Below, one piece after another: positions 8,343-48,331 of a DNA stretch of 62,761 bases. The DNA comes from Chrysochromulina tobinii. Lineage: Eukaryota. The DNA lies in NCBI GenBank assembly GCA_001275005.1, contig JWZX01002709.1, positions 1-62,761 of the forward strand. The letters are read 5' to 3'. Position 1 is the stretch's first letter, and each line of letters starts with the position of its first letter. Position numbers and translations under genes: made by a program. The notes under the pieces are model-generated. The model worked only from the letters and a program-made list of their open reading frames with translations, was not told the origin of the DNA and searched no databases.

Positions 8343-10628
8343 ATGTCGGAGTCCTCGCTCAAGTACTACGAGCGCCACAAGACGCTGATCGAGGATGTGA
8401 TAGGGAAAAGCATTGATGAGGCTCTCTCGACACAGCCGGAGAATCCAATTGTCACCATCGCGGCCGCACTGCTCAAGCGGTGCCAGGTGGAGAGTGCAGC
8501 GGATGCCGCCTTGCTCAGGAGCGCGTTCCCGCAGCACCACGCTCGGGGGCCAGACGAGGTCACCGCCAGCTTGGCCGCCCTCGGATTGGATCGGTACGCT
8601 CCTGAGTTGAGAGAGCTCGGGTACGACGATCTGGACTACCTCAAGAATTCGCCCCAGGAGGAGCTTCTGCAGGTCGCAAAGAGGGTTCAAATGCTCGAGG
8701 GTCACGCTGCCAGGTGGGTCAGATCGCTAAGCGGGACTGCGGCGTCGCTCGAAACGGTAGCGCTGGCGCGTTCGGCCTCTAGTGTCGCGGAGCAGGTCAG
8801 AGTTATGCAATTGCAAGCGCCCCCCAACGATGATGAAGAGGGTGAGCGCATCGTTCTCTGGTTCATCAAGGCCGACAAGCTTCGGGGCTGCGATGATCGG
8901 GTGCTGCCAAGGTTCCAGGACCTGCAGAGCCAGAGGCCCGACTGGTTTGTCGAGAAGGAGATCACTCTCGAGGGCGCGTGCGCGCATGAGTACGCGGACG
9001 AAGTGCTTGCCGTCTCGCACCGCTGGGAGCAGCCAGCGGAGCCGGACACGGAGGGCAAACAGTTCGCGGCCATACGTAAGTACGTGCGGGGAAAGCCGGC
9101 CATCAAACTCGTCTGGGTCGACTTTTCGTGCGCGCCACAGAAGGAGCGTACCCCGGCCGAGGAGCTCGTCTTCAAGCGTACCCTGCGCTTCGTCAACCTG
9201 CTCTTTCTCGGCTCGCGGGTCCTCATTCTTTGCGACCTGACCTACATGACCCGCTTCTGGACGCTATTGGAAGCGTGGATCTCGATGCAGATGACGACCG
9301 ACGACGGCCTCGTGCCCGCTCCGCGCGAGAAGCGGCGTTGTGACATTGTGCCCATCCACCTCGCGAGCACAGGCACGGCATCGGAGCTCGAGACCCTGGT
9401 TGCGGACAAGAGCTTGGAGCAGATCTACGCGATGCTCGAGAGCCCGGACATTCACGTGACCAGACAGAAGGACAAGAATACGCAGCTCCCCAAGCTCTTG
9501 GGACTCGACCATCAGGTCAGACTGGTTGTGCGCAAGATGGCGCCGCCGATGCTGACGCTCGCTGGCGGAGCCCGGGGGCCATCGCGTGGTGGTGCGGGCG
9601 TGGGCACGGGCGCAGATGCGCCGGCGCCCTCGAAGGACGAGCGGCTGCAGCGGCTAGTCGAGCAGGTGCGCAGCGGCAGCGCATATGCGGCCGGTGCACT
9701 GGCTGACATGCGCGAAAACGAGTCGCGGGTGGCGATTGCGAGGGCGGGCGGAATCGAGCCGCTCGTGGCGCTGCTCACGGCCCAAGAACCAGCGGCCGGG
9801 GCGGAGGCGGCGCGTGCGCTGCGGAACCTCGCGAACAACACCGAGAACAAGGTCTTGATCGCGCAGGCTGGCGCCGTCGCGCCGCTTGTGACGCTGGTGC
9901 AGAGCGGCACGGATGGCCAAAAGGAGCAGGCGGCGGGTGCGCTGCGGAACCTCGCGGTCAAAAACGCCGAGAACCAGGAAAAGATCGCGAAGGCTGGGGC
10001 CATCACGCCGCTCGTGACGCTGGTGCAGAGCGGCACGGATGGCCAAAAGGAGTACGCGGCGGGTGCGCTGCGGAACCTCGCGTTCAACGCCGAGAACAAG
10101 GTCTTGATCGCGCAGGCTGGGGCCATCGCGCCGCTCGTGACGCTGGTGAAGAGCGGCACGGATGGCCAAAAGGAGTATGCGGCGCGTGCGCTGCGGAACC
10201 TCGCGGATAACAATGCCGAGAACCAGGTCTTGATCGCGCAGGCTGGGGCCATCGCACCGCTCGTGACGATGGTGCAGAGCGGCACCACGGATGGCCAAAA
10301 GGAGAACGCGGCGGCTGCGCTGTTTTTCCTCGCGGACATCGCCGAGAACAAGGTCTTGATCGCGCAGGCTGGGGCCATCACCGCGCCGCTCGTGACGTTG
10401 GTGAAGAGCGGCACGGATGGCCAAAAGGAGTACGCGGCGGCTGCGCTTTTCAACCTCGCTGTCAATGCCGAGAACAAGGTCTTGATCGCGCAGGCTGGCG
10501 CCATCGCGCCGCTCGTGACGCTGAAGCAGAGCGGCACGGCTGGCCAAAAGGAGAACGCGGCGGGTGCGCTGACGAGCCTCGCGCTCAACGACGAGAACAA
10601 GGTCTTGATCGCGCAGGCGGGTGGCTAA
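8343..10628 (+). CDS. Intronless modular protein: Dpy-30/RIIa-like helix pair + SAM + HET(TIR-like) domain + armadillo repeats
   Basis: SAM: DEVTASLAALGLDRYAPELRELGYDDLDYLK; HET motifs LAVSHRW, VWVDFSCAPQ, VNLLFLGSRV, YMTRFWTLLE; about 8 ARM repeats (AAGALRNLA..NAENKVLIAQAGAIAPLVTLV). Confidence 0.88.
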   Translation: MSESSLKYYERHKTLIEDVIGKSIDEALSTQPENPIVTIAAALLKRCQVESAADAALLRSAFPQHHARGPDEVTASLAALGLDRYAPELRELGYDDLDYLKNSPQEELLQVAKRVQMLEGHAARWVRSLSGTAASLETVALARSASSVAEQVRVMQLQAPPNDDEEGERIVLWFIKADKLRGCDDRVLPRFQDLQSQRPDWFVEKEITLEGACAHEYADEVLAVSHRWEQPAEPDTEGKQFAAIRKYVRGKPAIKLVWVDFSCAPQKERTPAEELVFKRTLRFVNLLFLGSRVLILCDLTYMTRFWTLLEAWISMQMTTDDGLVPAPREKRRCDIVPIHLASTGTASELETLVADKSLEQIYAMLESPDIHVTRQKDKNTQLPKLLGLDHQVRLVVRKMAPPMLTLAGGARGPSRGGAGVGTGADAPAPSKDERLQRLVEQVRSGSAYAAGALADMRENESRVAIARAGGIEPLVALLTAQEPAAGAEAARALRNLANNTENKVLIAQAGAVAPLVTLVQSGTDGQKEQAAGALRNLAVKNAENQEKIAKAGAITPLVTLVQSGTDGQKEYAAGALRNLAFNAENKVLIAQAGAIAPLVTLVKSGTDGQKEYAARALRNLADNNAENQVLIAQAGAIAPLVTMVQSGTTDGQKENAAAALFFLADIAENKVLIAQAGAITAPLVTLVKSGTDGQKEYAAAALFNLAVNAENKVLIAQAGAIAPLVTLKQSGTAGQKENAAGALTSLALNDENKVLIAQAGG
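9820..10625 (+). repeat. Near-identical 123-126 bp ARM-coding tandem repeats (~7 units)
   Basis: GAGAACAAGGTCTTGATCGCGCAGGC and GGATGGCCAAAAGGAG recur once per unit with few changes. Confidence 0.95.
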
Positions 10629-10729
10629 CCCCAACGCCAATTGCAAGGTGGCATGGGGGTTAGCCATCCATGCCACCTTGCCAAGGGGCGACCGCTGGTC
10701 GGTCGTGCCTCCGCCGCCGCGCACGTCCA

Positions 10730-10815
10730 TCGGCATATGGGGGCGTCGGCATATGGGAGCGTCGGCATTTGGGGGCGTCGGCATGTGGGGGCATCGGCAT
10801 GTGGGGGCGTCGGCT
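10730..10815. repeat. Short tandem repeat, unit about GGGGGCGTCGGCATNT (~5-6 copies)
   Basis: Directly visible ~16-bp unit downstream of the ARM gene. Confidence 0.8.
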
Positions 10816-11012
10816 CTTCGCGCCGCTCGAGCAGCACGTGCCTGGCTGGCCGTCGTACGTGCGGTGGAGGTCGCTGCTGTGACAGCTTCCGCGTCTCAAA
10901 TGGGGTCATGTAAGTTCTGAGCGGGCAGTAAGAGTGTCGTAGCACCCGGTTCCGCGGGGGGAAAAGTGGCGCTGTGAACGTTCACAGCGCGCTCCATCCA
11001 CCAAAAACGATC

Positions 11013-13503
11013 ATGAGCGGGCTCACGCGCCGTTGCGTCATCCCCGTGCCCGCCGGCGCGAAGCCTGGTCACACGCTGACGGTGCAGACGGATGCGGGAC
11101 TGTTCCAGCTGGCCGTGCCGGCCAAGATCGCGCGCTTGTTTGTCGCCGACCTGCCCGTGCCCGAAGGCTGCGCGCTGCCGCACCTCACGGTGGCGTGGGT
11201 GCGCGTGGGCGGAGCGGATGCACCGGATGCGCCGTGCGAGAAGCCTCCTCGCTCATTCCACGCAGACCACGCGCTTGACCGCGGCGAGGAGGAGGGCGCG
11301 GCCGACGACGGCAACGCCGAGGCCGCCGGCGCGGCGCCCTCCGCCGCGCCACTGCGCGTCACCGTGCACGGCATCCGCACCAACTCCCAAGCGGTCACCG
11401 AGTACTGCGTCAAGGTGTACCGCGAGCTGTCCCGCGGCGAGCAGCGGCCGTTGGGCGAGCACTGGCACCGCTACTCGGCGTTCTCGCAGCTGCACGATCG
11501 TCTCGGCGTCTTCCCAGGCGCCTTCCCCGTCGATAAGAAGCGCTGGGTGCACACGGACCAGGTGCGTCATGGCCGCGGATGGCCTCTCGGATGGCCTCTC
11601 GGATGGCTTCCCTGATGATGACCTCTCGGATGACCTCTCGGATGGCTTCCCTCATGACCTCCCTGATGCCCTCCCTGATTGCCTCCCTCATCAGGTGCAC
11701 GAGCATCGCGAGGCGCAACTCAATCAGTACATGGCGCGGCTGCTCGCTCGATACGAAGCTCTCGCCGCGAAGCAGCGGCTGTACGCGACCGCCGAGGCGC
11801 CCGGGACGGCGCCCCATGAGGCGGATGAGCTACCGGCTGCCCTTCGCGCCTTTTTGGGCGTCGAGGGTGACGAAGCCAAGGTGACGAAACTTGCCTGATG
11901 GCCTGCCTGATGGCCTCGCTGATGGCCTCCCTCATCAGGTGACGAAACTTGCCTGATGGTCTGCCTGATGGCCTGCCTGATTGCCTCACTGATTGCCTCC
12001 CTCATCAGGTGATGAGATGGTTCCTCTGATTGCATCTGATTGCCTCCCTCATCAGGTGATGAGATGGTTCCTCGGCGTCTCTTCGACGAGTTACGAAACC
12101 GGCGGCGGCAAACTCGGCGGTAACGGCGGCAGTCACGGCGAGGTGAAGTGAAGTGTGGAAGCTCATCTCATCTGATTGCCTCTGATTGCCTCACTGGTCG
12201 CCTCACTGATTGCCTCCCTCATCAGGTGAAGTGTGGAAGCTCATCTCATCGCAATGACGCACGAAGTGGGCTGGACTTGCCTAATAAGGTCACGTTCGAG
12301 CGTGGGCCGGACTTGCCTAATAAGGACCCTTCCGAGATCGATACGAGATCGTGGCAAGATCGCCTCTGCTGCTGCCTCCAGCCTACCCAACTGCAAGTCG
12401 CCATGGTTGCTGTGAACATGGGTGCTGTGAACATGGGTGCTGCACCTTCCGACGGCACCGCTGTCACCATCGCACCCGCAGCTACAGGCCGGAGTGCTAC
12501 AGCCAGCGGCCACGCAGGGGCTAAGGGCGGCGCGACCGCTGGTGCTGGGGCTAAGGGCGGCGCAATCGCTGGTGCTGGGGCTAAGGGCGGCGGCACCGCG
12601 GGCGCGGCCAAAGGCGAAGAGCGCGGCAGCGAAGGGCGCGGTGCCCGAGGCGGCGCGGCGCCCGTGACGGCGCCCGAAGGCCACGCGACGGCGCTCGATG
12701 CGGCGAAGCGTTGTAATGAGCGCTTCGATTGGGCGGGCGCGCGCGCCGCTCTCGCGCCATGGACGCACCAGCACGACGCTCGCACCCTCATCGAGCGCAC
12801 CATTTGCAACCTGCAGGTGACGAAACCTTCCTGATGGCCTGCCTGATTGGCCCGCCTGATTGCCTCGCTGATTGCCTCACTCATCGAGCGCACCATTTGC
12901 AACCTGCAGCTCGCCGAGGACGCTGTGGAGGAGCAGCCGCCGGATGGGCGGCGCGCCAAGGAGCGAGCGGCCGAGGCGCTCGAGACGGCGCGGCGCGCGC
13001 TCGAGACGGCGCCCGACGACGCGGCGGCCCATATTTGGTACGGGCAGGCTGTCGGCACGCATGCAAAGGTCTTCGACCCGGGGCTGGGGCAGGGGCGCGT
13101 GTGCAACGTCCTCGTGCAGCACTGGGACCGCGCCGTCGAGCTCGCCCCGCAGGACCCGTTGCCGTACCACCTGCTCGGCTCGTTTGCTTTCCACACGTCG
13201 GCGCTGCCGTGGGCGACCCAGAGCATCGTGCGCACCCTCTCCCCCGGGCTGCGCAAGTTCACAGCGGACGACGCGATGGAGCTGCTTCGTCACTCGGAGG
13301 CGCGCATGCCCTCGCCGCCGAGCCACTACGCCGTCACCAACCGCTCGATGCTGGGCCGGCTCCACCTGCGCAAGGGCCAAAAGGGCGAGGCGCGCGTGTG
13401 GCTCGACAAGGCGCTCGACACGGCGCTCGAGCTCGACAAGGCGCTCGATCGGTCCGCGCAGAAGGCGGCAGACGAGGCCCGCAAGGCGCGCGCGAAGCTG
13501 TGA
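11013..13503 (+). CDS. PX-domain protein with C-terminal RMDN/TPR-like region, multi-exon
   Basis: PX: TEYCVKVY...WHRYSAFSQLHDRL...FPVDKK...REAQLNQYMARLL; C-terminal AHIWYGQAVG...WDRAVELAPQDPLPYHLLGSFAF resembles regulator-of-microtubule-dynamics proteins. Joining into one gene is inferred from GT-AG introns. Confidence 0.7.
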
Positions 13504-13826
13504 GACGAGAGACGTGAGACGAGCTGACGCACCAACTGTCGGCGGTCAAAATTACGGCGTTGGAGCTTGGACGATGACGATTGAAACCGCGTTTAGATGA
13601 TTGTACTGACGTGCCAAAGTAGTACAGCTGTTTAGCTTATAGGAATAGTAAAATCCGTATCGGCTATCGCGCGCACGTTCAATGCATAGCGCTTTTTGGC
13701 AATGGCTGTCCGCAGGCATGTAACCCGAAAGCAAATCCAAAATGCAAACAGGGAGGAACACAACTCCTGAACACTTCACTCTTCAGCACGGCACGCCCTA
13801 AATCTAAAATCGACGCCCGGTATGCG

Positions 13827-16568
13827 CTATGCCTGATAGGGATTGTCCGTCGTGGTGCACAGCTTCTCGCCGCCATTGCAACGGTGGTAGGCGATGACGT
13901 AGTCGATGTGCACGTACTCGGAGTGGAAGAGGACAAACTCGCGGTAGCGCACGATATCCTTGCCCAGCTCGGCGATCAATGAGTGGTGTTCGATTGGTGG
14001 CGTGACGCCCGGAACCGGCGAGAGCTCCCGAAAGCTTTTGGGGAAGATGGGTGTGAGATCGTCCATCGAGGTGGCCTTCTTACCCGTCTGCTGCGTGCGC
14101 ACGGGGTAGCCGAGGGCCGCGCGCACCACGAGAACGTAGAAGACGTCGCCCGGGTGGCGCACGGTTCTGCCGTACAGCCGCTTGTGCAGGTCACTGCTCG
14201 GGTCATACTCGCTGTCGGCTCCGACATACTGATCCGTCTTGCCAACATCCTCCGCGAGGTAGACGCCGTCGCCGAAGGCGGTGCCCGCGCCGGTGCCCGA
14301 GTAGCGCTCGTTCAGGCCCGTGGACAGCAGCCCTAGCAGCCGATCCGGGATGGTGCCATGCAGTAGGATGGCCTCGTTGGCGCCTGCCTTCATGGTGAAG
14401 CCTTCTGCGGCACGAGCCGTCGTCTTCACCGGCAGGCCGGGCACCTTGTCGACATCCTTGCCCTTCTTCTTGAGCCGATCCATCTCCTTCTGAACGCGCT
14501 TCACGCCGGCCGTGTACTTGTCCAGGTTGTCTGGATGATCTACCTTCCACGCGCAGGCAAGCTTCAGCGAGTCATACGGGCCGTACTTTTTCAACACGTC
14601 CTTGCCCTTGCCGAGCCAGCCTGGGTGCTCTGTCTCAAGTAGCGCCTCGAGCGAGCGTCGCACGCTTGCATCGGACGCGAGCAGAGGCCGAAGGGCAAAG
14701 CCGTCCTTCTCCTTCGCCCATTCAGCCCTCTCCTCCACCCAATCCTTCTGGGCTTCTGGTAGTCCAATCCAGGTCATGGCACGGCGAAGCATTGACGGAG
14801 GCCGCCTTCTTCGCTGCGCGGCCTCCTGCGCTGCGGCCTTCTCTGCGGCCGCCTTCTCATCGGCTGCTCTCTTGGCCGCCGCCTCCTTCTCAGACGTCGA
14901 CGTATTCTCCATCTTGCAGCTGGGGGCCTTGGCATACTCCTTGCCATCCCACTCCTCCCAGACCGCGGTCGACTGGTGCGGCAGACTGGCCGACGTATCC
15001 TCCAATCTCATGAAGCCTGCGTCTTTAAAGTCCACATCCTTGCCCTCCTGTACAAACCAGTTGCCATCGGAGCCAACTGCGATCCATTTGTCCGCCGTCG
15101 CATGCTTCCACACCGGCTTCCCGTTGGCTATGCGTTGCGGCCCCAGCAAGTAGGTGCCCAGGCACTCCGTCTTGTGCTCCAGCTCTCCGCAGAGGCTCAA
15201 CGAGGTGGGCACGTCCCCGAAGCACTTGCAGCTGAGGGCCTCCTGCCACTTTATTGCCGTATTATCCCACTCCCCCCAGACCGCGGTCGACTGGTGCGGA
15301 AGACTGGCCGGCGTGTCCTGCGACAAACAGTATTGATAACCGCCCAGATCCTCGCGATCCTGTACCGCCCACTTGCCAAAGGAGGCCCATGCGATCCATC
15401 TGTCCTCCGTCTCATGCTTCCACAACGGCTTCCCGTGAACGTTGTACGATTGCGGCTTCAGCAAGTAGGTGCCCAGGCACTCCGTGTGGAGCTCCAGCTC
15501 TCCGTAGAGGCGCAACGTGGTGGGCACTGGCTCCCTTGGCGCCAAGTCGTGGGCCCAGTTCGCATCGACGCGTGAGCCATAGTGTACTAGCACCACATCG
15601 AGCGGCCAGCCCTGGTACAGATCGAGCGCATGAGAGATCGCATCACGGATCCATTCGTATCGGTTGCCGAAGACGCCTCCGCCGAGCGCCGTCAGGTAGC
15701 ACTTGACGCGCGCGCCTCCAGCTTCTAGGGAGCGTACAGCTCCGACGGCGAGCGTGGCCTCGTACGCAGCGCGCAGCACGAGGCGCGCAAAGGGCTCCCA
15801 GTCGATCTCTGGCGTCCCGCGCGCGTAATTGCAGGGCAGCGCGGACGCGTACACTTGGCACACGCGGTGCTCGAGCGGCGGCGCCACCGAGGTCTCCCAG
15901 TGCACGCCGACGCGCAGTGCGGCCTCGGCCTGCTCGACCAGGTTGGGCTCCGTCCTGAGGCGTGCGGCGAGCTCGGTCAACGAGTCGCGCCCCACCGGCA
16001 TCGCGTAGCCGTTCTGCATGCCCCAGTAGCGTCCGTCGTCGTTGCCGACGGCCACGCCCACCGCCTTCAGGGTGTCAATCTGCACGGGGTGCTGCCCTGT
16101 GTTGCCCTCGTGCTGCACGAGGTAGTTGCGATACACGGTCGCGGCCGGGCACGCGAGCGCACACGCGAAGCCCTGGGTTTTGTCGTTGACATAGATGCCA
16201 ACGCCAGCAGTGGGCGACACGCTGGGGTTCGTCGTCTCGAGGCAGTTGAACTGACTGGCCGCCTGGAAGACTGCACCGGCATTACTCGGCTCGTAGTGTA
16301 GCGGTCCGACGCCCGCCGGCGCGGCAAGGTGCGCGAAACTAAGGCCAGCCGACGGCGCCGCCGCACAGGGTCCGGCGGCCAGCTTGCTGCGCAGTTCGGC
16401 GACAGACGGGCACTCGAAACGCCCAACGAACTGCCTTGGAAACTGCGGAGCGGTCCTGCACACGAGCGTATCGCCATCCATCTGGAAGTGGTTTACGTTG
16501 TCTCCCCACGTGCTGCTCTCGTCGAAGCCGAAGAGGTCACGGAACCACGCTGGCTTCTCGCGCTGCAT
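13827..16568 (-). CDS. Intronless protein: putative macro-like N-terminal domain + two Trp-rich ~100-aa repeats + PARP catalytic domain
   Basis: C-terminal NEAILLHGT, AFGDGVYLAE, YREFVLF give the PARP H-Y-E triad; N-terminal FQAASQFNCLE and ALGGGVFGN; probable start MQREKPAWF at 16568 (ORF open to 16688). Confidence 0.88.
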   Translation of the reverse strand: MQREKPAWFRDLFGFDESSTWGDNVNHFQMDGDTLVCRTAPQFPRQFVGRFECPSVAELRSKLAAGPCAAAPSAGLSFAHLAAPAGVGPLHYEPSNAGAVFQAASQFNCLETTNPSVSPTAGVGIYVNDKTQGFACALACPAATVYRNYLVQHEGNTGQHPVQIDTLKAVGVAVGNDDGRYWGMQNGYAMPVGRDSLTELAARLRTEPNLVEQAEAALRVGVHWETSVAPPLEHRVCQVYASALPCNYARGTPEIDWEPFARLVLRAAYEATLAVGAVRSLEAGGARVKCYLTALGGGVFGNRYEWIRDAISHALDLYQGWPLDVVLVHYGSRVDANWAHDLAPREPVPTTLRLYGELELHTECLGTYLLKPQSYNVHGKPLWKHETEDRWIAWASFGKWAVQDREDLGGYQYCLSQDTPASLPHQSTAVWGEWDNTAIKWQEALSCKCFGDVPTSLSLCGELEHKTECLGTYLLGPQRIANGKPVWKHATADKWIAVGSDGNWFVQEGKDVDFKDAGFMRLEDTSASLPHQSTAVWEEWDGKEYAKAPSCKMENTSTSEKEAAAKRAADEKAAAEKAAAQEAAQRRRRPPSMLRRAMTWIGLPEAQKDWVEERAEWAKEKDGFALRPLLASDASVRRSLEALLETEHPGWLGKGKDVLKKYGPYDSLKLACAWKVDHPDNLDKYTAGVKRVQKEMDRLKKKGKDVDKVPGLPVKTTARAAEGFTMKAGANEAILLHGTIPDRLLGLLSTGLNERYSGTGAGTAFGDGVYLAEDVGKTDQYVGADSEYDPSSDLHKRLYGRTVRHPGDVFYVLVVRAALGYPVRTQQTGKKATSMDDLTPIFPKSFRELSPVPGVTPPIEHHSLIAELGKDIVRYREFVLFHSEYVHIDYVIAYHRCNGGEKLCTTTDNPYQA

Positions 16569-16829
16569 CGGAAATGGCGAGCGCTTGCTGCCTCTCTCCG
16601 TGTGCTTCGCCCACGCTGTGGGACCTCCACACGATAGCAAGGGGATAGAACTAAAGTTCTGCATCTGTAACGGTCTGGTAACGGTCACTTCAGTCGGTCA
16701 GTTTCGTCGCTGTCCCCCCGCGCTACCAAGCTATCATTTAGCTATCATCGCAAAGACAAGGCTCTGATTTTAATCATAACACAGCCTTATTAAAACACAG
16801 CCTTCAGCGCATAGCTTTCATGCGAGATT

Positions 16830-18502
16830 TCAATCGAAAGAACCCACCTCACGCTTGGAGCGCCCGCCTCCCCAGTACTTGCCCGACGAAAGGTCGCCCG
16901 CCTCGACCGCGGCCCACTGCTTTGCATGGTCCTTGATGCTGAGGCCGCGCTCGCGCGCCGCCGCGCTCGACGCCAGCTTGCGCTCCTTCTCGCGCTCGAG
17001 CTGCTCACGCTCGCGCCCCCTCTGTGTGGCACGCTGCCGCTCGTGCTCCGCCTTGAGCTTCGAGTGCAGCACCTGCGGTGACAGTCCGCGCAATCCGCTC
17101 TCTCAGAATGCTCAACAGGAGGGCCCAGGGCTGGCGACTCGGGGCTGGCGAGTCTTTGAGTCCATGGCGAGTCTTTGAGCGCGGCACGTGCCTTCTGGCG
17201 CTGCTCAGCAATCTCGGCGGCAATCAAGAGGCAATGAACGACACTCACCTGCTGGCGCTGCTCAGCAATCTCGGCGGATGAGAGATTGAGCCGGCCGCCG
17301 CCGTCGGGCAGCTTGTCGTACGATGACGCCTCCGCCTCGCGCGGCGGGCGGATCGCATGCTCGATCGCCTCCTCGAGCTCGACTAGTGACACCATCAGCT
17401 GCGGCTTGAGGATGAGCTCTACGTCCTGCGCCGTGCGCCCGTTGCGCGCGACACACTTGACACGCTCCGTCAAGGTGACGTCGGCTCCGCTGCCGCCGCT
17501 CTCAGACTCCGACGACGCTGTCGCAGCGGCCACACGCTGCACCCGCATCTCGAAGGCGGGCACATGCGACGCAACCTGGTGCAGCCGGCCCGGCACGCAT
17601 GTCTTGACCAGGTGACCCTTGCACAGGCGGCGCAGCACGATCTGCAAGCCTTCACAGTGCGTGCTGTGGTTGAGCACAATGCGCCCGTCTCCAACTTGGC
17701 TCGCCTCTTCTGCGCCGTCTTGGGCGCCGTCTCGTGCCGGCTTCACATTCACATTCACATTCACATTCACGCTGCGAGAGGCTGACATGGCGGCGTCGGC
17801 GCTTACGCTTACGCGTGCACGCTGCTCCGCACGTGCGGCGTCGGCAATGCGTGCCTCCGCCTGCTGCGCCGCCTTGACGCGTTTCAGCCGTTCGCGCGCG
17901 GCGTCCGCTGCCAAGCGCAGCGGTATCGTATCTTGCGGATCGAGCGTATGCAGCAGCGGCATGGCCGCAAGCAGCGCCTGCCTGATCTCCTCTACAGACT
18001 CCGCAAAGTCGAGCTGAATCATGAGTAGCACGGGCGCATTCTCTGCGGTGTCCGTCAAATCCTCCGCTGCCCCCGATGCGGGCGGCACCTCAGCTGGCAC
18101 TGTCGTCCTGAGCTCCTCGTACAGAGCCCGATCATGCATGGCCTCGAGAGCTTCGATGTTCGCCTCGGGGTCGGCGAGCAGCTCAAGAAGATACTCAAGG
18201 TCGTCGCGCAACCCGTCGGCGCAGCCTGCCGGGAGCACCTCGCCATCAATCTTGTGGATGATCGTCGCAAGGCGCTCTTCGTGGAACCGGCAACGCTCAA
18301 TCATAGGATCATTATCGCCCAGTAAGGTCGCGCGATCTTGGAAACTGACCACAGTGCTCCTGAGCCACTCTGGCGCGATTCGGTGGCTCTCTTTTGCTGC
18401 CACTACTGCCGTCTTGCGCTGCTCCGCACGGGCTGCTAGCTTCTCCGCCCTAGCACGTGCCTGCTCGGACTGCGAAAGCCGCGACTTCTCGCCGCCTCCC
18501 AT
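16830..18502 (-). CDS. Coiled-coil protein containing a DUF2103-like domain, two exons
   Basis: GRIVLNHSTHCEGL...KTCVPGRL...FEMRV...KCVARNGRTAQDV recalls DUF2103; intron at about 17073-17248 (CAG/GTGAGT ... CGCAG/GTG) joins the last exon VLHSKLKAEH...VGSFD*. Confidence 0.65.
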
Positions 18503-19169
18503 AGAGGAAATGAAGGAGTCGATGATGGAAGTTTCGTAACGAAATAACGAAACATCATGTGGTTTCGAATCGAAATCCGAAGGGAGCGCTACTTTCATGA
18601 AAATGAATGCTCACAACGAAACGCGGGCACGGGGAATTCATCCCGAGCTCGAGGGTAAGTCCACTCACCGCAGTCGAACTCCTCGACCACCGTCATCGGT
18701 CATCCGCTCATTCCATTCTGGTCCCCGTCACCATCCTCCGCTCCTCGTTAGCTCCTCGTCCTCATACCTCATCCTCGCGCTCGCGCTCAGCGCCCTCTTG
18801 TCGCCGCCGCCATCGGCTGCCTCCTTGCCAATGCTCCTTGCTGCCGCCCTTACCGCCGCCACCGGCCGCGCCCTTCTTATGCTTGATCAGCGTATCCTCC
18901 TCGTCGTCGCTCTACTCCTCTTCACAGTCAGAAGGCGCCGTCCTGGGCGTCACCTTATGGCCGCTTGTGCTTCTGTCTGCGCCCACCACGGCGTTCCCTC
19001 TGCCACTGCCACCCTTGGCCTCGCCCTCGACCTCGGCGGCGCCCACACTACCCCTCACCATGGCGCTCACGACAGCGCTTTCGCGAGGGAGACGACGCCG
19101 TGGTGGGCGCTGCCTCGGTGGGGCGCACGGCATGCACATGACAGCGCGCGGCATGCCGTCGTGCTGTTC

Positions 19170-24708: not shown

Positions 24709-24761
24709 GCGGTTAGTTCGTCGTCGATGCCGGCTGACACCGTGGCGGGACCCTGGGTCGG

Positions 24762-31744: not shown

Positions 31745-31784
<40 letters not shown>

Positions 31785-31797
31785 GCATGCGGCCCTC

Positions 31798-36810: not shown

Positions 36811-37004
36811 CCTTCCTGAGTTTCGTCAGTGCCGAAGAATCGAATCCGGCGGCGTGAACGTTAACACGACAGACGCGACAACCGTTGCTACGGCACTGTG
36901 AAGGGAGCGCACGGTGTTTCACGAATTTGCAGGTTTTCCGTATGTTTCTTCAGACACATGTGTCCCGCATACCATCACACAACTTGGCCTCTGCACAGAA
37001 GCGC

Positions 37005-41824: not shown

Positions 41825-42057
41825 GTTGGGCGGCGAACCCGCGCGCCTCTCTAGTGGCGGCGCGTGCGGGAGCGGCAGGCTAGGCCGACGAGCGATCAGG
41901 TGTGAATGGTTACCATTTGCTGTGAAAACGACAGCGGTCCCGCGGGTCCCCCCGCAAAAACAGTGTGGGGGAGCCGGGACACCCGTGGTCTGTGTGTCTG
42001 CGTGAAGCAAAAACGGGTCGACACACAATACGCTCATGCGAGCGCTAACCCTAACCC

Positions 42058-42300
42058 AGGCCGAGAAGTGGCGGATGTCCTTAGCGGTGATCGAGTCGAT
42101 CACGAAGAGGGAAGAGCAAGCCCTGGAGCTTGCGGCCAGGGGAGATTATTGACAAACTCGAGCGTCGCCATCTGCTTCCTTGTCGAGGACGAGAACGCCT
42201 GCCACGTGATCCGCCTGTCGGTCGCGTAGACGTCGGGGTTGAGAAGGACCTTGATGCCCCGATAGACCTTGCCCACGTGCGTCGGCAGGCTGCCCAGTGC
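42058..42300 (-). pseudogene. Remnant of an NAD:arginine ADP-ribosyltransferase (R-S-E class ART) domain
   Basis: Manual translation from 42300: ALGSLPTHVGKVYRGIKVLLNPDVYATDRRITWQAFSSSTRKQMATLEFVNNL, +1 frameshift, PGRKLQGLLF, 7-nt duplication, VIDSITAKDIRHFSA, then lost. YRG and FSSST motifs are present; the catalytic ExE is absent; no start codon. Confidence 0.85.
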
Positions 42301-45300
42301 TATGTCGTCGGCAGCTTCTGGCCGCCATTGCAGCGGTGGTAGGCGATGACGTAGTCGATGTGCACGTACTCGGAGTGGAAGAGAACAAACTCGCGGTAGC
42401 GATCGATCACCTGGCCCAGCTCGGCGATCAGCGAATGGTGGCAGATTGGTGGCGTGACGCCCGGCACCGCCGAGAGCTCACGGAAGTTGACGGGGAAGAT
42501 GAGCGCACCATTGTCCATCGAGGTGGCCGTCTGGCCCGGTTGCTGCGTGCGCACGGGGTAGCCGAGGGCCGCGCGCACCACGAGAACGTAGAAGACGTCG
42601 CCCGGGTGGCGGAAGGTTCTGCCGTACAGCCGCTTGTGCAGGTCACTGCTCGGGTCGTACGCGCTGTCGGCACTGACGTACTGATCCGTCTTGCCAACGT
42701 CCTCCGCGAGGTAGACGCCGTCGCCGAAGGCGGTGCCCGCGCCGGTGCCCGAGTAGCGCTCGTTCAGGCCCGTGGACAGCAGGTGGAACAGCCGATCTGG
42801 GTTGGTGCCATGCAGGAGGATGACCTCATTGCAAGCCTCCGAGGGGGTGAGGCCGCGCACGCGATCGGTCTTCACGGGCAGGCCGGGAACGAAGGAGACA
42901 TTCTTGCCCTTCCTCTCGAGCAGCTCGAGCTCCTGCTGCACGCGCTTCACGCCGGTCGTGTACTTGTCCAGGTTGCGTGGATGGTCGACCTTCCACGCAC
43001 ACGCGAGCTTCAGCGAGTCGTACGGGCCGTACTTTTTCGACACGTCCTTGCCCTTGCCGAGCCACTCTGGGTACTCTGTCTGGAGCAGCGCCTCAAGGGA
43101 GCGTAGCAAGCGTGCATCGGTCTCCGGCCGGAGAGCCTGGAGGGCGAAGCCGTCCTGCTCCAGTGCGAGACGAGCCTTGTTCTCGGCGGCCGGCTGTCCG
43201 CGCAGCGACCCAACAGCAGGCGCGGCTAGAGATGGCGGGGGAGGTGGTGGGACAGGGCCGGAGATGGTGAGGCTCGCAGCGATAGCCGCAGCAAGCTGAG
43301 CGTCTTCAACCTCTTGCAGCGCCTCGGATTCCTGCTGACTCCTCTCCGCCTGCTCCTTGACACGCTGCTCCTCGAGAAAGCGCGCGCGCACCGAAGGCGC
43401 ATCGCGCAGCAGTTGCAAGACCTCATTCTGATCCTGGGCCGGCTTCTTCACCATCCCCGACGAGAAACCAACCTGGACGAGATCGAGCACGCCGCTCACG
43501 TCGGCGCCATGCTGGATGAGGAGCCGGAGCATTTTGGGCTGAGCGAGCGCGCCGAAGCGCTGCACCAGGCGGATGCCGTGATGATCGGTCGCATTAGCAC
43601 GCGCGCCTGCCTCGAGCAGCGCGGCGCTTTGGGCTTCGTCACCACGTATCATCGTGCGAATGAGCACCGGGTCACCATCGTGATCGAGCTGGTTTGGGTC
43701 CGCCTTTGCCTTGAGCAGCATCCGAAGGCACTCGACGTTGCGCGGGCTCGGGTCACAGGTGGCCAGCATCAGCGGCGTGCCGCCTTTGCCATTGGGCTGC
43801 TCCACATTCCCCTTTGCCTCAATAAGTAGCTTGAGCAGCGGAGGGTTCGCTTCCTGCGCTGCCCAGCTCATCGGGTGCGCGCCACGGTGGTCCATACGAC
43901 CGATGGTGGCCGTGGCGCCCGCCTTGAGCAGCAGCGCCGCCGCCTCGATCGATCCCTTTTTAGAGACAAACCCGAGTGGGCTCTCGCCATCGCGCGGATC
44001 GATGGCATTGACGTCGACCTTGTGCTCGATGAGGATGCGCACGCACTCGAGCTTGACATCTTTCTGGTCTTCCTCGTAACCAAGTGCAAGCATGAGAGGC
44101 GAGCCGCCTTTACCATTCTTCTTCTCGACGTCGGCCTTGGCCTTGCAGAGCAGCTCGAGGATCTTGGGGTAGGCGTCCTGGCACGCCCAGTGCATCGGAT
44201 GCGTGCCTATCCGATCCATCTTATTGATCGTCTGTGCCGCGCCGTGCTCCAACAGTATCTGGACGCACTCGAACGATCCGCCATGCGCCGCGGCATTGAG
44301 CAGCGTGGTACCATCATCTCTTGTATAATTTCCGTCGGCCTTGGCGCCGAGTAGTAGCCTGCAGCACTCGGAATGGTCGGCTATGCATGCGAGCAAGGTG
44401 GGTGGGTCGCCATCGGCGTCAGTCAAGTGGACGTTTGCGCCGTTGGCCAACAGCCACTTGATGGCATCGGTACGATCGCCGAGCACTGCGAAGGCGAGCG
44501 GTGTCATTGACCTCGCGAAGGAGGAAAATTGGTGGGTGTCCACATTGGCCCGGCCCCGGAGCAGCAGCTGAAGGATAGGCAGGTTGAGGTTGGGCTCGAC
44601 GCAGCAGAGCCAACCGAGCGGCGTGCACTCGAGCGGCTCGGTCTTGCATTCCAAGTTGGCACGCGCATTGATGAGCGCCTCGACGCAGCTGCTGTGCGCG
44701 CCACGGACCGCCGCAAATAGCGGCGTGTACCGCTCCTCGTCCACCGCCTCCAGGCTGGCGCGGTGCTCGAGGAGCAGCTGCACGCACACAACGAATCCGT
44801 TTCGCGCAGCCACACCAAGGGGGCTCAGCTCCCCTCTTGGCTGGATTTGTACGTCGGCCCCACGATCAAGGAGCAGCCGAGTGCACTCGAGCGACCCAGC
44901 ACGGCACGCGTGCCACAGCGGCGACGCCCCCGAAGCGTCCCGCACATTTGGGTTGCACTCGGGACTATTGAGTAGCGCCTCAAGTCGCGTGACTGACTTG
45001 GCCGCGGCCATGAAGATATCGTTGAGGTCGCCGGTGACGATCTCGAGCCAGCGTGCATCCAAATTCCAAATTCCAGAAGCAGCCTCGTGCGCCATGCGCG
45101 CCAACTGGAGCATCTGCAACATCGACGCCTTCTGTGCGCGCATGTGCTCTTTCTGGTTCCTGCTGCGGCCGCCGCCCGTCCTAGAACCCGTCACGCCGTC
45201 GTAATCCCCCTTTGCCTCCGGCGGCCGCGGCCGGGTGAGCGTGTCGTGGGGCGGGTCGGGCGCAGCCGCATCGAGAAACAGGAGCCGGCCGGCCGCCATC

Positions 45301-47891
45301 ACGTTCCACGGGTTGCCGTCGTGCGCGGCGGGCTTCTTATCATAGTAGACGCGCACGCATCCGTTTTTGTTCGAGCAGCCGGCGCTCGTGTCGAAGAATC
45401 GGCCCTGCGCCGTCGTCCAGCCCACCACTGTGCCGTAGACGGGGCTGTCGCTCCCGTTTTCAACATCACCGATGTCGAGCACGCGCGTGCCGAGCTCGAG
45501 CCTCGCGTGGGGTGTCTCGCTCTCGAAGATGAAGCCCACGACCCCCAGACTCTGCTGACGACGCCATACAGCCATCTCCGCCGCTGGCGGCGCCAGGTCG
45601 GACACAGAGCTGAATGCCCCGGCGTCCATGATCTGATCCACTGCAGACGCACTTTGCCGCAGGTGGGAGGCCATTTCATCAACGAGTGTCGCATCGAGCG
45701 GCACGCCGGGCAGGTACTCTTCCATGTCCTTTTGCATGCTCATGAAATTGAGCGTGTCAGGGTGCTGATCGCCGAGTGTCGCACGGCAATGCTCGACGAC
45801 CAGCGGCAGCGCTTCGTCGAGCATGCCCTGGGTCGCCAGCAGGGATCCCAGATTGTGGATGGCGGTGAGCGTCTGAGGGTGCCGATCGCCGAGCGTCGCA
45901 CGCCTCGCCTCGAGCGCCTCGCGCAGCAGCGGCTCCGCCTCATCAAGCTTGCCCTGGTCCTGCAGCAGAGTCCCCAGATTGCCAATGGAGGCAAGCGTGT
46001 GAGGGTGCCGATCGCCGAGCGTCGCACGCATCGCCTCAAGCGCCTCGCGCACCAGCGGCTCCGCCTCGTCAAGCTTGCCCTGGTCCTGCAGCAGCGTCCC
46101 AAGATTGTTGATGGAGCCAAGCGTGTCAGGGTGCCGATCGCCGAGCGTCGCACGCCTCACCTCGAGCGCCTTGCGCTTCAGCGGCTCCGCCTCATCAAGC
46201 TTGCCCTGGGCCTGCAGCAGCGTCCCCAGATTGCCAATGGAGGCAAGCGTGTGAGGGTGCCGATCGCCGAGCGTCGCACGCCTCGCCTCGAGCGCCTCGC
46301 GGTACAGCACGCCCGCCTCGTCGAGCTTGCCCTGGTCCTGCAGCAGCATCCCCAGATTATTCATCGAGTCGAGGGTGCGCGGATGCCGATCGCCGAGCGT
46401 CGCACGCCTCGCCTCGAGCGCCTCGCGGAACAGCCCGCCCGCCTCGTCGAGCTTGCCCTGGTCGTTCAGCAGCAGCCCCAGCTGGTTCTGCAGCACCGAC
46501 GTCGCCCGCTCCTCGCGCGGCATGCGCGCCAGCGCCGCGCGGCCCTCGGCCGCGAGCCACTCGCGCAGCGACGCGCACACCGTCGCTGTCACCGCGCCGA
46601 TGCCGCCCTCGAGCTGCGCCACCTCGGCCAGGATGTAGTCGCGGTCCTCGATCATGGTGATCTGCGCGTCGGCCGCGTCGATGCCCGCCACGATGCCCGC
46701 AATCTCGTCAAAGCGCCTCGTCAGCAGCTCCTCGAAGCCGTCCACGTCCGCGGGCGCGAGCACCACGTGCAGCGTCGCGCCTTTGGCGAGCGCCTTGACG
46801 AGCTCGAACATGCACCACGCGCGCGTCATCGCGCCCGGCCCGCGGCGCAACCAACCGGCGGGCGGTGCGCCGCGCTCGGGCAGCAAAAAGGGCTGGTTGG
46901 GCGCGGGCCACTCGGCCGTGAGCGGCGAGCAGTACAGGAGGAGCTCGCCGATGGCCGCCATCGCATCGGCAAACACGTGGTCCGTATCCTCCTTGCGCGC
47001 CGTGTGCTCCTCGCTGCCCCGGGGGTAGCGGCCGGCATCAAACTCGCCCGCGAGCAGCGTCTGCGAGGCCGCAAAGATGTCGATCCACACGTAGCGCGTC
47101 ACGCCGTCGGCGGCCTCGAGCTCGGCCAGCCTGCGCTCGATGGCGTCGAGCATGTCGCCCAGCTTCGTGCCCTCCCACGAGTACGAGAAGAAGGTGGTCG
47201 CGAGGCCGATGAGCGCATCCACCACCTCGCCGCGCGCCTCGGCCGTGAGCGCGAGCGACTCGATGAGCGAGAGCCCCGTCGAGCGCGTGAGCGCGCACAC
47301 GCTCCACTCGAAGCCCTCCTGCTTGATCAGGTCGCCCATCAGCATGCCGAGCGCGCCGCGCGCGCGGTAGAAGCGCCGGATGGCGCGCAGCATCGCTCGG
47401 GTGATGCCGCGCCGGCCGCTCGGCAGGCGGCGCGCGTGCGGGCGCACCGGCACGTCGAGCGTGCCCTTGGGCACGCGCGCCGCTGTGATCGCCTTGCATC
47501 GGCGAGGGAATCGGCGGTGCTGCCAATCGATGTCGCCTGATCGCTGCGGATCGATGTCGAGGAAGCGTCGCCCGCGCCGCGCAAGCGTATCACCATGGAC
47601 TTGGGCATGGCGACGGGCTTGGGCATGGGCGCGGGCGTGGGCAAAGCCACGGGCTTGGGCGTGGGCGCGGGCGCGGGCGCGGGCGTGGGTGCGCCCGCGC
47701 GGCGGGCCAGGTATAACAGAGCTGTATCGTGTGCTGTGCGGGCACTCGATTTGAAGGAACGGGCGGCGGCGAGGGACGCTGCGGAGATGGATCTGGCGAT
47801 GAGCTTGGGGATCTGGGTGCACGAGATGATGAAGATATGCACCACGGAGGTAACCACGAAGAGCCAGAGGCGAGGATTCGTGAGGATCCAA
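42300..47891 (-). CDS. Intronless giant modular protein: HET(TIR-like) + TPR repeats + possible SH3-like insert + ankyrin repeats + UIM + PARP catalytic domain
   Basis: HET FFSYSW, YVWIDIF, MTRAWCMFE (~47200-46560); 42-aa LGDRHPxTL TPRs; >10 ankyrin repeats (~44990-43480); UIM EDAQLAAAIAASL; PARP LLHGT / GVYLAE / YREF. The ORF N-terminus above ~47495 is probably the wrong frame. Confidence 0.92.
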   Translation of the reverse strand: MDPHESSPLALRGYLRGAYLHHLVHPDPQAHRQIHLRSVPRRRPFLQIECPHSTRYSSVIPGPPRGRTHARARARAHAQARGFAHARAHAQARRHAQVHGDTLARRGRRFLDIDPQRSGDIDWQHRRFPRRCKAITAARVPKGTLDVPVRPHARRLPSGRRGITRAMLRAIRRFYRARGALGMLMGDLIKQEGFEWSVCALTRSTGLSLIESLALTAEARGEVVDALIGLATTFFSYSWEGTKLGDMLDAIERRLAELEAADGVTRYVWIDIFAASQTLLAGEFDAGRYPRGSEEHTARKEDTDHVFADAMAAIGELLLYCSPLTAEWPAPNQPFLLPERGAPPAGWLRRGPGAMTRAWCMFELVKALAKGATLHVVLAPADVDGFEELLTRRFDEIAGIVAGIDAADAQITMIEDRDYILAEVAQLEGGIGAVTATVCASLREWLAAEGRAALARMPREERATSVLQNQLGLLLNDQGKLDEAGGLFREALEARRATLGDRHPRTLDSMNNLGMLLQDQGKLDEAGVLYREALEARRATLGDRHPHTLASIGNLGTLLQAQGKLDEAEPLKRKALEVRRATLGDRHPDTLGSINNLGTLLQDQGKLDEAEPLVREALEAMRATLGDRHPHTLASIGNLGTLLQDQGKLDEAEPLLREALEARRATLGDRHPQTLTAIHNLGSLLATQGMLDEALPLVVEHCRATLGDQHPDTLNFMSMQKDMEEYLPGVPLDATLVDEMASHLRQSASAVDQIMDAGAFSSVSDLAPPAAEMAVWRRQQSLGVVGFIFESETPHARLELGTRVLDIGDVENGSDSPVYGTVVGWTTAQGRFFDTSAGCSNKNGCVRVYYDKKPAAHDGNPWNVMAAGRLLFLDAAAPDPPHDTLTRPRPPEAKGDYDGVTGSRTGGGRSRNQKEHMRAQKASMLQMLQLARMAHEAASGIWNLDARWLEIVTGDLNDIFMAAAKSVTRLEALLNSPECNPNVRDASGASPLWHACRAGSLECTRLLLDRGADVQIQPRGELSPLGVAARNGFVVCVQLLLEHRASLEAVDEERYTPLFAAVRGAHSSCVEALINARANLECKTEPLECTPLGWLCCVEPNLNLPILQLLLRGRANVDTHQFSSFARSMTPLAFAVLGDRTDAIKWLLANGANVHLTDADGDPPTLLACIADHSECCRLLLGAKADGNYTRDDGTTLLNAAAHGGSFECVQILLEHGAAQTINKMDRIGTHPMHWACQDAYPKILELLCKAKADVEKKNGKGGSPLMLALGYEEDQKDVKLECVRILIEHKVDVNAIDPRDGESPLGFVSKKGSIEAAALLLKAGATATIGRMDHRGAHPMSWAAQEANPPLLKLLIEAKGNVEQPNGKGGTPLMLATCDPSPRNVECLRMLLKAKADPNQLDHDGDPVLIRTMIRGDEAQSAALLEAGARANATDHHGIRLVQRFGALAQPKMLRLLIQHGADVSGVLDLVQVGFSSGMVKKPAQDQNEVLQLLRDAPSVRARFLEEQRVKEQAERSQQESEALQEVEDAQLAAAIAASLTISGPVPPPPPPSLAAPAVGSLRGQPAAENKARLALEQDGFALQALRPETDARLLRSLEALLQTEYPEWLGKGKDVSKKYGPYDSLKLACAWKVDHPRNLDKYTTGVKRVQQELELLERKGKNVSFVPGLPVKTDRVRGLTPSEACNEVILLHGTNPDRLFHLLSTGLNERYSGTGAGTAFGDGVYLAEDVGKTDQYVSADSAYDPSSDLHKRLYGRTFRHPGDVFYVLVVRAALGYPVRTQQPGQTATSMDNGALIFPVNFRELSAVPGVTPPICHHSLIAELGQVIDRYREFVLFHSEYVHIDYVIAYHRCNGGQKLPTT
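45760..46500 (-). repeat. Near-identical 126-bp TPR-coding tandem repeats
   Basis: GCCGATCGCCGAGCGTCGCACG recurs at 126-bp spacing (45881-46385), with degenerate flanking units. Confidence 0.95.
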
Positions 47892-48331
47892 TGCAGAACT
47901 ATGAGGATAGAGAGCGCGCCGTCCTTGTCGCGGTTGAACGCATTGAAGGCCATCAGCTCCTCGATGAATCTAATGGCCGGATCGATGAAATACCAGCAGA
48001 CGGTGGCACGCGGTTTCGCGCACGGGCTTTGCTTCAGGGCCCCCATCATGCCACCGAGGGAGCAGCTGTGAGAGACAAGCACCCTCGCCGTCTCGCGCGT
48101 CCACTGGGTGCCATGGGCGGTGAGCTCGGCGGGGAAAGCGCCGCCGCCGCTCACGGTGGCTGCTGCCGCAGCAAGCGACGAGTTGTCGCGCTGCGGGGCT
48201 GAAAAACGGGCCCGAGTCGCATCATGGTCGGCTGTGCCGATCAATGGGGTCGAGTCACTGCCTAGGTTCGAGTGTACTGAATCGAGTCGAGTGGTGACCG
48301 TGAAGATCGCGAGGAGAGAGCGGAACGCCAT
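47495..48331 (-). CDS. Probable N-terminal segment of the HET-TPR-ANK-PARP gene in a shifted frame (hydrophobic segments, Pro/Ala linker)
   Basis: Frame MAFRSLLAIF...LWLFVVTSVVHIFIIS...PAPAPTPKP...IRLRGAG...SLADA reads as protein up to 47495, where the downstream frame begins to read as protein (KAITAARV). Confidence 0.5.

What the first reader, a model, noticed from the sequence alone, without database searches (positions are those of the whole stretch)
8343..48331. Candidate NLR-like, NAD+-consuming defence system with shuffled sensor repeats and swappable ADP-ribosylation effectors
Seen: three long intronless genes among intron-rich neighbours reuse one parts list: HET-like domains (twice), near-identical superstructure repeats (ARM; TPR, plus divergent ANK), the same PARP cassette (twice), a putative macro-like domain and an ART remnant. 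Established: fungal NLRs couple HET effectors to highly conserved, hypervariable TPR/ANK/WD repeats; HET is a distant TIR relative; TIR, PARP and ART domains consume NAD+ in antiviral and cell-death pathways. Inference: an algal immune repertoire lacking the NACHT/NB-ARC switch and diversified by module recombination, possibly against giant viruses. I do not recognise these architectures as described.
Basis: partly seen in the sequence, partly recalled or inferred. Interest (0 to 1): 0.92.

Follow-up and report, generated by a model that had tools for sequence, protein, structure and literature searches.

The report
Algal mix-and-match NAD+ defence gene kit
This alga builds many genes from swappable parts (variable binding repeats, predicted TIR-like domains, and predicted ADP-ribose writer and eraser enzymes) that likely form an NAD+-based defence kit, although the largest gene here is frameshifted and probably an assembly chimera.

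Summary
Mostly real; the interpretation needs correcting. Relatives point to a Chrysochromulina-type haptophyte. Its HET-like domain folds TIR-like (pLDDT 96; top match a TIR, Z only 7.7), with a Glu invariant in 93 of 93 aligned sequences. Gene B is a PARG-like macrodomain + two beta repeats + an H-Y-E PARP; the macrodomain's closest sampled relatives are giant-virus proteins. Gene C is frameshifted. Two other assemblies join its TPR-ANK-PARP part to a different, broken HET-like domain, so its four-module form and the clustering are probably assembly joins. No ART remnant was found. The two HET-like domains are distant families, not one reused part. Across relatives, near-identical HET or PARP modules carry different partners, and repeat variation sits at a few helix positions. 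No NACHT/NB-ARC: these are not NLRs. Best reading: a dispersed, recombining NAD+/ADP-ribose conflict toolkit (about 55%). No activity, infection response or target is shown. New variant of a known kind.

The parts
8343..10628 (+). Gene A, 761 aa, single ORF: short helical N-terminus, SAM, HET-like/TIR-fold domain, ARM repeats
   Evidence: identical protein on 14 contigs
8550..8735 (+). SAM domain
   Evidence: phmmer vs PDB best E 4.7e-4; 9 of 10 listed hits are entries I recall as SAM domains; homologous to the SAM region of P0028, which carries PF00536
8871..9536 (+). HET-like domain A, predicted TIR-like fold; invariant Glu at about 9270-9272
9690..10625 (+). About 7 ARM repeats, conserved framework with a few hypervariable positions
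12655..13500 (+). RMD1-like TPR module present in about two copies; ambiguous assembly joint between the gene A side and the gene B side
13827..16568 (-). Gene B, 913 aa (945 aa from the ATG at 16664): macrodomain, two beta repeats, linker, PARP
   Evidence: 945-aa form identical on 10 contigs; RNA-library contigs with 0 differences over parts of 14301-15580
15570..16562 (-). PARG-like macrodomain of an unnamed family shared with bacteria and giant viruses
14946..15527 (-). Two copies of a ~104-aa repeat of unknown family, also tandemly repeated in other PARP-cassette proteins
   Evidence: no Pfam hit at E<=0.1, no PDB hit
13827..14712 (-). PARP cassette with H-Y-E triad
47339..48331 (-). 5' ORF of gene C (hydrophobic N-terminal module, Pro-Ala linker); out of frame with the rest
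47488..47498 (-). Frameshift at the boundary between the N-terminal module and HET-like domain C
   Evidence: not resolved by laid contigs
46570..47489 (-). HET-like domain C, distant relative of A; conserved Glu at about 46803-46805
   Evidence: fold not predicted
45735..46490 (-). Six 42-aa kinesin-light-chain-type TPRs; repeat type switches at about 46257-46282 (suspected chimeric joint)
45000..45735 (-). Unassigned middle region
   Evidence: no Pfam hit at E<=0.1
43470..44970 (-). Divergent ankyrin repeats
42300..43205 (-). Second PARP cassette with H-Y-E triad
62510..62761 (-). C-terminal capping module of a fourth, HET-C/TPR-family gene cut by the window end
   Evidence: 100% identical over 83 aa to the end of P0083

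Best explanation
These genes are members of dispersed, recombining gene families in a probable haptophyte alga that likely act as an NTPase-free, NAD+-using defence kit: variable ARM/TPR repeats would sense a foreign ligand, a predicted TIR-like HET domain would then cleave NAD+, and a swappable PARP cassette would ADP-ribosylate targets, with a PARG-like macrodomain predicted to read or erase the mark. Shown: the domain content, multicopy status, module swapping, clustered repeat variation and conserved putative catalytic residues. Inferred: for gene A a SARM1-like logic, in which SAM supplies the oligomerisation that NACHT/NB-ARC gives in NLRs and ARM gates it. Also inferred: membrane anchoring through acylated N-termini in many relatives, a writer-plus-eraser (self-limiting) logic in gene B, and giant viruses as the opponent. 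Gene C as assembled is probably not a working four-module protein.
For: HET-A: pLDDT 96.3; best structural matches are TIR domains (SpbK Z 7.7, rmsd 3.2, 107 aligned; RUN1 Foldseek probability 0.93); 8 of 93 aligned sequences hit PF06985 HET at E<=0.1; Glu in 93 of 93 and, for HET-C, 48 of 50. Partners of HET-A among 70 long relatives include GBP, WD40, LRR, HEAT, ANK, ROC-COR, TIR_2, C-type lectin, trypsin and PARP. PARP-cassette relatives (48) are fused to ARM, TIR_2, ANK, kinase, dynamin-like, Macro and others; one exact 28-mer retrieved 14 stretches forming 6 distinct loci. Identical HET-A cores carry unrelated N-termini (P0012/P0017, P0015/P0016). Probable alleles are mosaics: gene A has 0 differences in residues 1-165 but 26 in HET and 41-45 in ARM; five of seven gene B variants have 0 differences in the beta repeats and linker but 18-30 in the macrodomain. 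Variation is concentrated at 7 of 37 ARM positions and about 8 of 42 TPR positions with helical spacing; TPR variable sites have pN 0.37 against pS 0.23, the rest 0.04 against 0.10. The macrodomain is PARG-like (E 6.7e-5; Z 14.5). It groups with two giant-virus proteins (SH-aLRT 100, quick tree), one of which also carries Macro and PARG_cat_microb domains. Its bacterial relatives sit near NAMPT, NADAR, KptA and NrtR genes in 4-7 of 80 loci each. TIR genes rise in virus-infected and resistant cells of another haptophyte (PMC12489294).
Against: No enzymatic, infection or target data. The TIR match is middling (Z under 8, no Foldseek hit at E<=0.001; nucleoside deoxyribosyltransferases follow at Z 6.2-6.4). 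The window's own HET domains do not hit PF06985, and HET is not among the 25 families shown for HET-C relatives. How HET domains kill is unknown even in fungi (PMC10890737, PMC10197012). The four window ARM repeats tested show no excess of pN over pS at the variable sites (0.37 vs 0.36), and PARP paralogs have pN/pS of 0.54-0.94, i.e. weak constraint; pairwise counts on recombining repeats are not independent. Several copies are damaged: gene C frameshift; the alternative 5' HET-like domain in L088/L092 has a stop at the Glu position; gene B's macrodomain departs at two positions invariant in 80 of 80 relatives. A non-immune-looking RMD1-like module is also duplicated with different 5' partners. 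Short-read assemblies can fake swaps and repeat-number differences. The macrodomain tree is a quick tree with a long stem and no other eukaryotic relatives sampled.
Confidence: 0.55

Rival explanations
1. Assembly-level rival, compatible with the best explanation: the HET-TPR-ANK-PARP gene and the 40-kb cluster are products of misjoining at repeats. The TPR-ANK-PARP gene really follows a different, broken HET-like domain, and gene A need not neighbour gene B.
For: L088 has 0 differences from window 42001-45600; L088 and L092 carry 12 and 10 TPRs of one type and a different 5' end, while the window switches repeat type after repeat 2. RNA contigs of two studies leave the window at 46570 with the L088-type sequence (loose ends of 12 and 255 letters, matched). 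GC3 steps from 0.90 to 0.79 across the joint. L095 joins gene B to another left flank through the duplicated RMD1-like module. Both flanks of gene C are at similar single-copy depth in X1/X3, which argues against two half-depth haplotypes (depth is a rough guide only).
Against: No contig shown spans either joint, so a real recent recombination between paralogous TPR arrays is not excluded. L088 and L092 disagree with each other on repeat number, and L101 differs from the window inside the PARP, so these assemblies also err or differ.
Confidence: 0.65
2. General genome fluidity: this alga duplicates and fuses domains genome-wide by gene conversion and ectopic recombination, and most chimeras are neutral or decaying, with no dedicated defence role.
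For: Broken copies, weak constraint on PARP paralogs, the RMD1-like duplication, odd fusion partners such as kinesin, helicase and 3HCDH, and little RNA-library cover of either HET domain.
Against: Invariant Glu across 93 diverse HET-A sequences; variation confined to a few repeat positions on a conserved framework; recurrence of immunity-type partners; the same HET-C/TPR layout in Prymnesium parvum.
Confidence: 0.2
3. Non-immune NAD+ signalling: SARM1-like metabolic or stress sensing, programmed death or DNA-damage signalling, with the repeats binding the cell's own proteins or metabolites.
For: Gene A has SARM1's domain types, and SARM1 is an NMN/NAD+ sensor (abstract starts). ANK + PARP resembles tankyrase, the best PDB sequence match.
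Against: Housekeeping sensors do not need hypervariable, length-variable repeats or many recombining copies.
Confidence: 0.13
4. Same biochemistry, different opponent: self/non-self recognition between algal cells, or control of bacteria, as for fungal HET proteins.
For: Fungal HET domains act in allorecognition, often outside NLRs (PMC10890737, PMC10197012). No relative of HET-A, HET-C or the PARP cassette was found in viral contigs.
Against: The macrodomain link points to giant viruses; no cell-fusion incompatibility in haptophytes is known to me (recalled, not searched).
Confidence: 0.12

Closest known systems
Fungal NLRs with HET effector and highly conserved TPR/ANK/WD repeats (PMC4986451)
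   Same: HET-like domain; 42-aa kinesin-light-chain-type TPRs with high internal conservation, length variation and a few hypervariable sites
   Different: No NACHT/NB-ARC; ARM repeats, SAM and PARP added; unicellular alga
Fungal non-NLR HET proteins, e.g. het-B BH (PMC10890737)
   Same: HET fused directly to a variable specificity domain without an NTPase
   Different: Specificity domain is a lectin fold, not ARM/TPR arrays; true PF06985 members; allorecognition shown genetically
SARM1 (ARM-SAM-SAM-TIR NADase; domain order recalled)
   Same: Gene A has ARM, SAM and a TIR-like domain with a conserved Glu
   Different: Order SAM-HET/TIR-ARM, one SAM, hypervariable multicopy ARM array, no orthology shown; probably convergent
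Tankyrase and macro-PARPs (PARP9/14/15)
   Same: ANK + PARP (gene C), macrodomain + PARP (gene B), H-Y-E triad
   Different: PARP is a distinct clade used as a swappable cassette; the macrodomain is of an unnamed bacterial/giant-virus family; no SAM found between ANK and PARP
Ectocarpus ROCO-LRR and NB-ARC-TPR candidate receptors (PMC3341825)
   Same: Algal, fast birth-and-death, shuffled and diversifying repeats, proposed immune role without functional proof
   Different: There each repeat is an exon and an NTPase is present; here the genes are intronless and whole enzyme modules are swapped
TIR genes induced in Gephyrocapsa huxleyi during EhV infection (PMC12489294)
   Same: Haptophyte, TIR-type domains with a conserved Glu, antiviral context
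   Different: Defined by Pfam TIR families; a text search of that paper gave 0 hits for PARP, ADP-ribos-, armadillo and tetratricopeptide

Membership tests
NLR (STAND receptor) | Central NACHT or NB-ARC NTPase | tested here: not met
   No such Pfam family and no Walker A pattern in A, B or C; none in 70 long HET-A relatives or in the precomputed domains of 96 HET-C relatives
NLR (STAND receptor) | N-terminal effector plus C-terminal superstructure repeats | tested here: met
   HET-like + ARM (gene A), HET-like + TPR (gene C family)
NLR (STAND receptor) | Highly conserved repeats with hypervariable sites | tested here: met
   85-86% nucleotide matches; variable sites. Positive selection itself is only suggestive for TPR and not seen for ARM
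HET domain (PF06985) | Match to the Pfam model | tested here: not met
   Window domains give no hit at E<=5; 8 of 93 HET-A alignment members hit weakly, best E 7.5e-4
HET domain (PF06985) | Three conserved blocks ending in the Trp...Glu helix | tested here: met
   Conserved columns; the equivalence to HET blocks rests on my recall of the motif and on the description in PMC4986451
TIR-type NADase | TIR (flavodoxin-like) fold | tested here: inconclusive
   HET-A: TIRs rank first but Z 7.7 and Foldseek E 6e-3; HET-C not folded
TIR-type NADase | Conserved catalytic Glu | tested here: inconclusive
   Glu invariant (93 of 93; 48 of 50); its superposition on the TIR catalytic Glu was not checked residue by residue
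TIR-type NADase | NAD+ cleavage on self-assembly | not testable with these tools
SARM1 | ARM, SAM and TIR-like domains in one chain | tested here: met
SARM1 | Order ARM-SAM-SAM-TIR | tested here: not met
   Order is SAM-HET-ARM
SARM1 | Allosteric NMN/NAD+ site in ARM | not tested
   none
PARP / ARTD | PARP catalytic domain with H-Y-E triad | tested here: met
   PF00644 above cut-off in B and C; residues align with tankyrase; strict patterns find all three in 30 of 48 relatives
Tankyrase | ANK-SAM-PARP layout | tested here: not met
   No SAM family hit in gene C
Macrodomain superfamily | Macro fold | tested here: met
PARG (canonical or microbial type) | Pfam PARG model and Gly-rich...Gln-Glu-Glu signature (signature recalled) | tested here: not met
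   No Pfam hit at E<=5; signature not seen in the translation; works like a PARG-type fold, membership not shown
   No hit; a very decayed remnant in the 150 unscanned short ORFs is not excluded

The most novel reading that the evidence does not exclude
A unicellular alga runs a combinatorial, NTPase-free immune repertoire: hypervariable ARM/TPR sensors are recombined onto TIR-like HET NADases (including a convergent, permuted SARM1) and onto a mobile PARP cassette, in an ADP-ribose arms race with giant viruses that share the same eraser macrodomain family with the host. It would also make HET-type domains testable NADases.
Probability: 0.3. Interest if true: 0.9.

Novelty: new variant of a known kind. 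Interest (0 to 1): 0.66.

Why it matters
Antiviral mechanisms of microalgae are described as underexplored (PMC12489294), and the way HET domains kill is an open question (PMC10890737, PMC10197012). This family offers intact single-ORF candidates (genes A and B) with a clear catalytic-residue test, invisible to Pfam TIR/HET searches yet with 1685 relatives at 50% clustering. If active, it extends NAD+-based immunity and receptor diversification to bloom-forming algae and links it to giant-virus ADP-ribose erasers.

Tried and rejected
No whole genome was held, so no genome-wide count was possible. PADLOC gave one weak irrelevant hit in 8 segments. PHROGs gave one weak hit, on the PARP, in 8 proteins. 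Viral contigs held no relative of the PARP cassette, HET-A or HET-C, and BFVD gave no match at E<=0.001 for HET-A. PDB sequence searches were blank or uninformative for the macrodomain alone, its profile (best E 0.054), the HET-A profile, gene A's N-terminal helices and the beta repeat; the HET-C profile matched through its TPRs only. A Dpy-30/RIIa-like reading of gene A's first 60 residues is only a resemblance and is not claimed. The Atlas lead to MavL-like hydrolases scored 0.81, a lead only; the Atlas gave nothing at 0.9 or above for gene A. No convincing terminal inverted repeats flank the genes (25 of 61 pairs shown for gene C). The five tested forms were: gene C from three internal starts and its 5' ORF, not in the protein collection; this is no evidence either way (four look-ups). 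0 of 96 HET-C relatives carry the middle or PARP module, but that search was limited to 321-1022 aa and cannot see such fusions. Lack of RNA cover over the HET domains is not evidence of silence. Complex prediction for HET-A self-assembly was not available: no verdict. Earlier scan findings: three look-ups returned nothing. Literature searches found no description of these architectures, within an open-access library only; supplements were not read.
Full report
Setting. Named relatives of all three genes come from Chrysochromulina tobinii, C. parva and Prymnesium parvum, so the window is probably from a Chrysochromulina-type haptophyte. No whole genome was held. Neighbouring genes look like housekeeping genes (kinesin, RING, Tex, thioredoxin, Got1, sulphur transporter). 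A short repeat motif typical of this window's introns occurs at 4.7-6.9 per kb between the three genes and at 0-0.44 per kb inside them.

Gene A (8343-10628, +). One ORF of 761 aa, identical on 14 contigs. Residues ~177-400 are HET-like. They do not hit Pfam, but 1685 representatives match at E<=0.001, and 8 of 93 aligned sequences hit PF06985 weakly. The model (pLDDT 96.3) matches TIR domains first (SpbK Z 7.7; RUN1 probability 0.93, E 6e-3), with nucleoside deoxyribosyltransferases close behind: suggestive, not decisive. One Glu is invariant in 93 of 93. About seven ARM repeats follow. In 93 distinct repeats from relatives, 7 of 37 positions vary strongly, spaced as one face of a helix; that this is the binding groove is my inference. 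These are SARM1's domain types in another order.

Gene B (13827-16568, -). Its N-terminal 330 aa fold as a PARG-like macrodomain (pLDDT 92.3; Foldseek E 6.7e-5; Z 14.5). The family has 243 matches in bacterial genomes and 7 in viral contigs, the best at 57% against 48% for bacteria. In a quick tree of 82 rows the algal pair groups with giant-virus-like L081 and L083 (SH-aLRT 100; long stem; no other eukaryotes sampled). The L083 protein also carries Macro and microbial PARG domains. Bacterial relatives lie near PRPP-synthetase-like (7 of 80 loci), NAMPT (7), NADAR (6), KptA (5) and NrtR (4) genes, which supports ADP-ribose handling. The window's allele departs at two positions invariant in 80 of 80 relatives, while other alleles keep them, so it may be weakened. 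Two ~104-aa repeats of unknown family and a PARP with the H-Y-E triad follow. RNA-library contigs match parts of 14301-15580 with no differences; this shows presence in an RNA library, not proven transcription.

Gene C (42300-48331, -). The ORF from 48331 runs out of frame with the long frame near 47494; relatives read through. HET-like domain C is a distant relative of A (hhalign probability 75%, 20% identity), with the Glu in 48 of 50; it was not folded. In relatives it is followed by TPRs and, in 23 of 96 by a strict pattern, by a capping module, whose tail also appears at the window's end as a fourth gene. L088 is identical to the window over 42001-45600. L088 and L092 continue into 12 and 10 TPRs and a different HET-C-family domain with a stop at the Glu position; the window switches repeat type after its second TPR. 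RNA contigs from two studies leave the window at 46570 with the L088 sequence. I put misassembly of this joint at about 65% and real recent recombination at about 35%. A second ambiguous joint lies in a duplicated RMD1-like module between A and B (L095). The cluster should therefore not be read as a locus.

ART remnant. Not found; 150 of 300 short extra ORFs were not scanned.

Shuffling. The PARP cassette occurs at 6 loci among 14 exact matches to one 28-mer. Its 48 relatives carry ARM, TIR_2, ANK, kinase, dynamin-like, Macro and other partners. HET-A partners among 70 long relatives include GBP, WD40, LRR, HEAT, ANK, ROC-COR, TIR_2 and PARP, with no NACHT/NB-ARC. Identical HET-A cores have unrelated N-termini, and probable alleles of A and B differ module by module. 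In laid DNA contigs, module depth is several times that of unique flanks and loose ends fall at module borders; the tool warns that depth is not copy number. All of this rests on short-read assemblies, which can fake some swaps. Selection signals are mixed: TPR variable sites pN 0.37 against pS 0.23, ARM 0.37 against 0.36, PARP paralogs pN/pS 0.54-0.94.

Mechanism. Most likely (55%) a recombining defence kit. A repeat array binds a foreign ligand; SAM or membrane anchoring brings HET domains together (acylation-type N-termini in 11 of 31 HET-A and 19 of 96 HET-C relatives); they cleave NAD+; PARP cassettes with other sensors modify targets; the macrodomain reads or resets the mark. Anatomy and variation are shown; every biochemical step and the opponent are inferred. 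Rivals are neutral genome fluidity (20%), non-immune NAD+ signalling (13%) and a non-viral opponent (12%).

Literature. Seen as passages: PMC4986451 (HET is TIR-related and has homologs in Haptophyceae; hypervariable TPR sites), PMC10890737 and PMC10197012 (non-NLR HET proteins; mechanism unknown), PMC9503650 (macrodomains and TIRs in large DNA viruses), bioRxiv 10.64898/2026.04.20.719644 (protist TIRs are catalytic). Seen as abstract and passages: PMC12489294. Seen as abstract and outline: PMC3341825. SARM1 papers: search listing and abstract starts only. Eight topic searches found no description of SAM-HET-ARM, HET-TPR without an NTPase in algae, or this PARP cassette; the library is open-access only and no supplements were read.

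Verdict. Not NLRs, not one system, and one gene is suspect. But the families are real, undescribed in the searches run, and directly testable. New variant of a known kind; interest 0.66.

Noticed in passing
window 62510-62761 (-): Tail of a fourth HET-C/TPR-family gene; the window ends inside it.
   Followed up: partly
window 47570-47590 (-) and P0082, P0090, P0094, P0098, P0100, P0101, P0104, P0114, P0132, P0153, P0157, P0163, P0164: 13 of 96 HET-C relatives carry a ubiquitin-tail-like motif directly before a Gly-Cys acylation-type motif; possibly a protease-cleaved pro-region that exposes a lipidation site (inference). The window copy lacks the Cys.
   Followed up: partly
window 12655-13500 (+); L095 7900-9200: An RMD1-like TPR module is duplicated with different 5' partners (PX-like in the window, CRAL-TRIO-like in L095; partner names recalled from motifs), so shuffling is not confined to the immune-like genes.
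   Followed up: partly
L083 4938-10253 (+): Giant-virus-like 1772-aa protein stacking this macrodomain family with Macro and microbial PARG domains: a candidate multi-eraser.
   Followed up: partly
L084/L085 4986-5972 (+): The same unnamed macrodomain family as a stand-alone gene in a phage-like contig.
   Followed up: no
L088 8730-10280 (-): The broken HET-like 5' region also repeats a short stretch that lies after the TPRs in gene C, and an ankyrin gene lies further upstream.
   Followed up: no
window 57298-61431: Local duplications: 57298-58057 against 59199-59960 at 88% over 779 nt, plus shorter ones; no Pfam hit in the overlapping ORFs tested.
   Followed up: no
window 16790-18610 (-): Long ORF of unknown family directly upstream of gene B (only weak Pfam hits).
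   Followed up: no
P0046, P0047, P0049: Canonical TIR_2 + PARP-cassette fusions in relatives, one from C. parva.
   Followed up: partly
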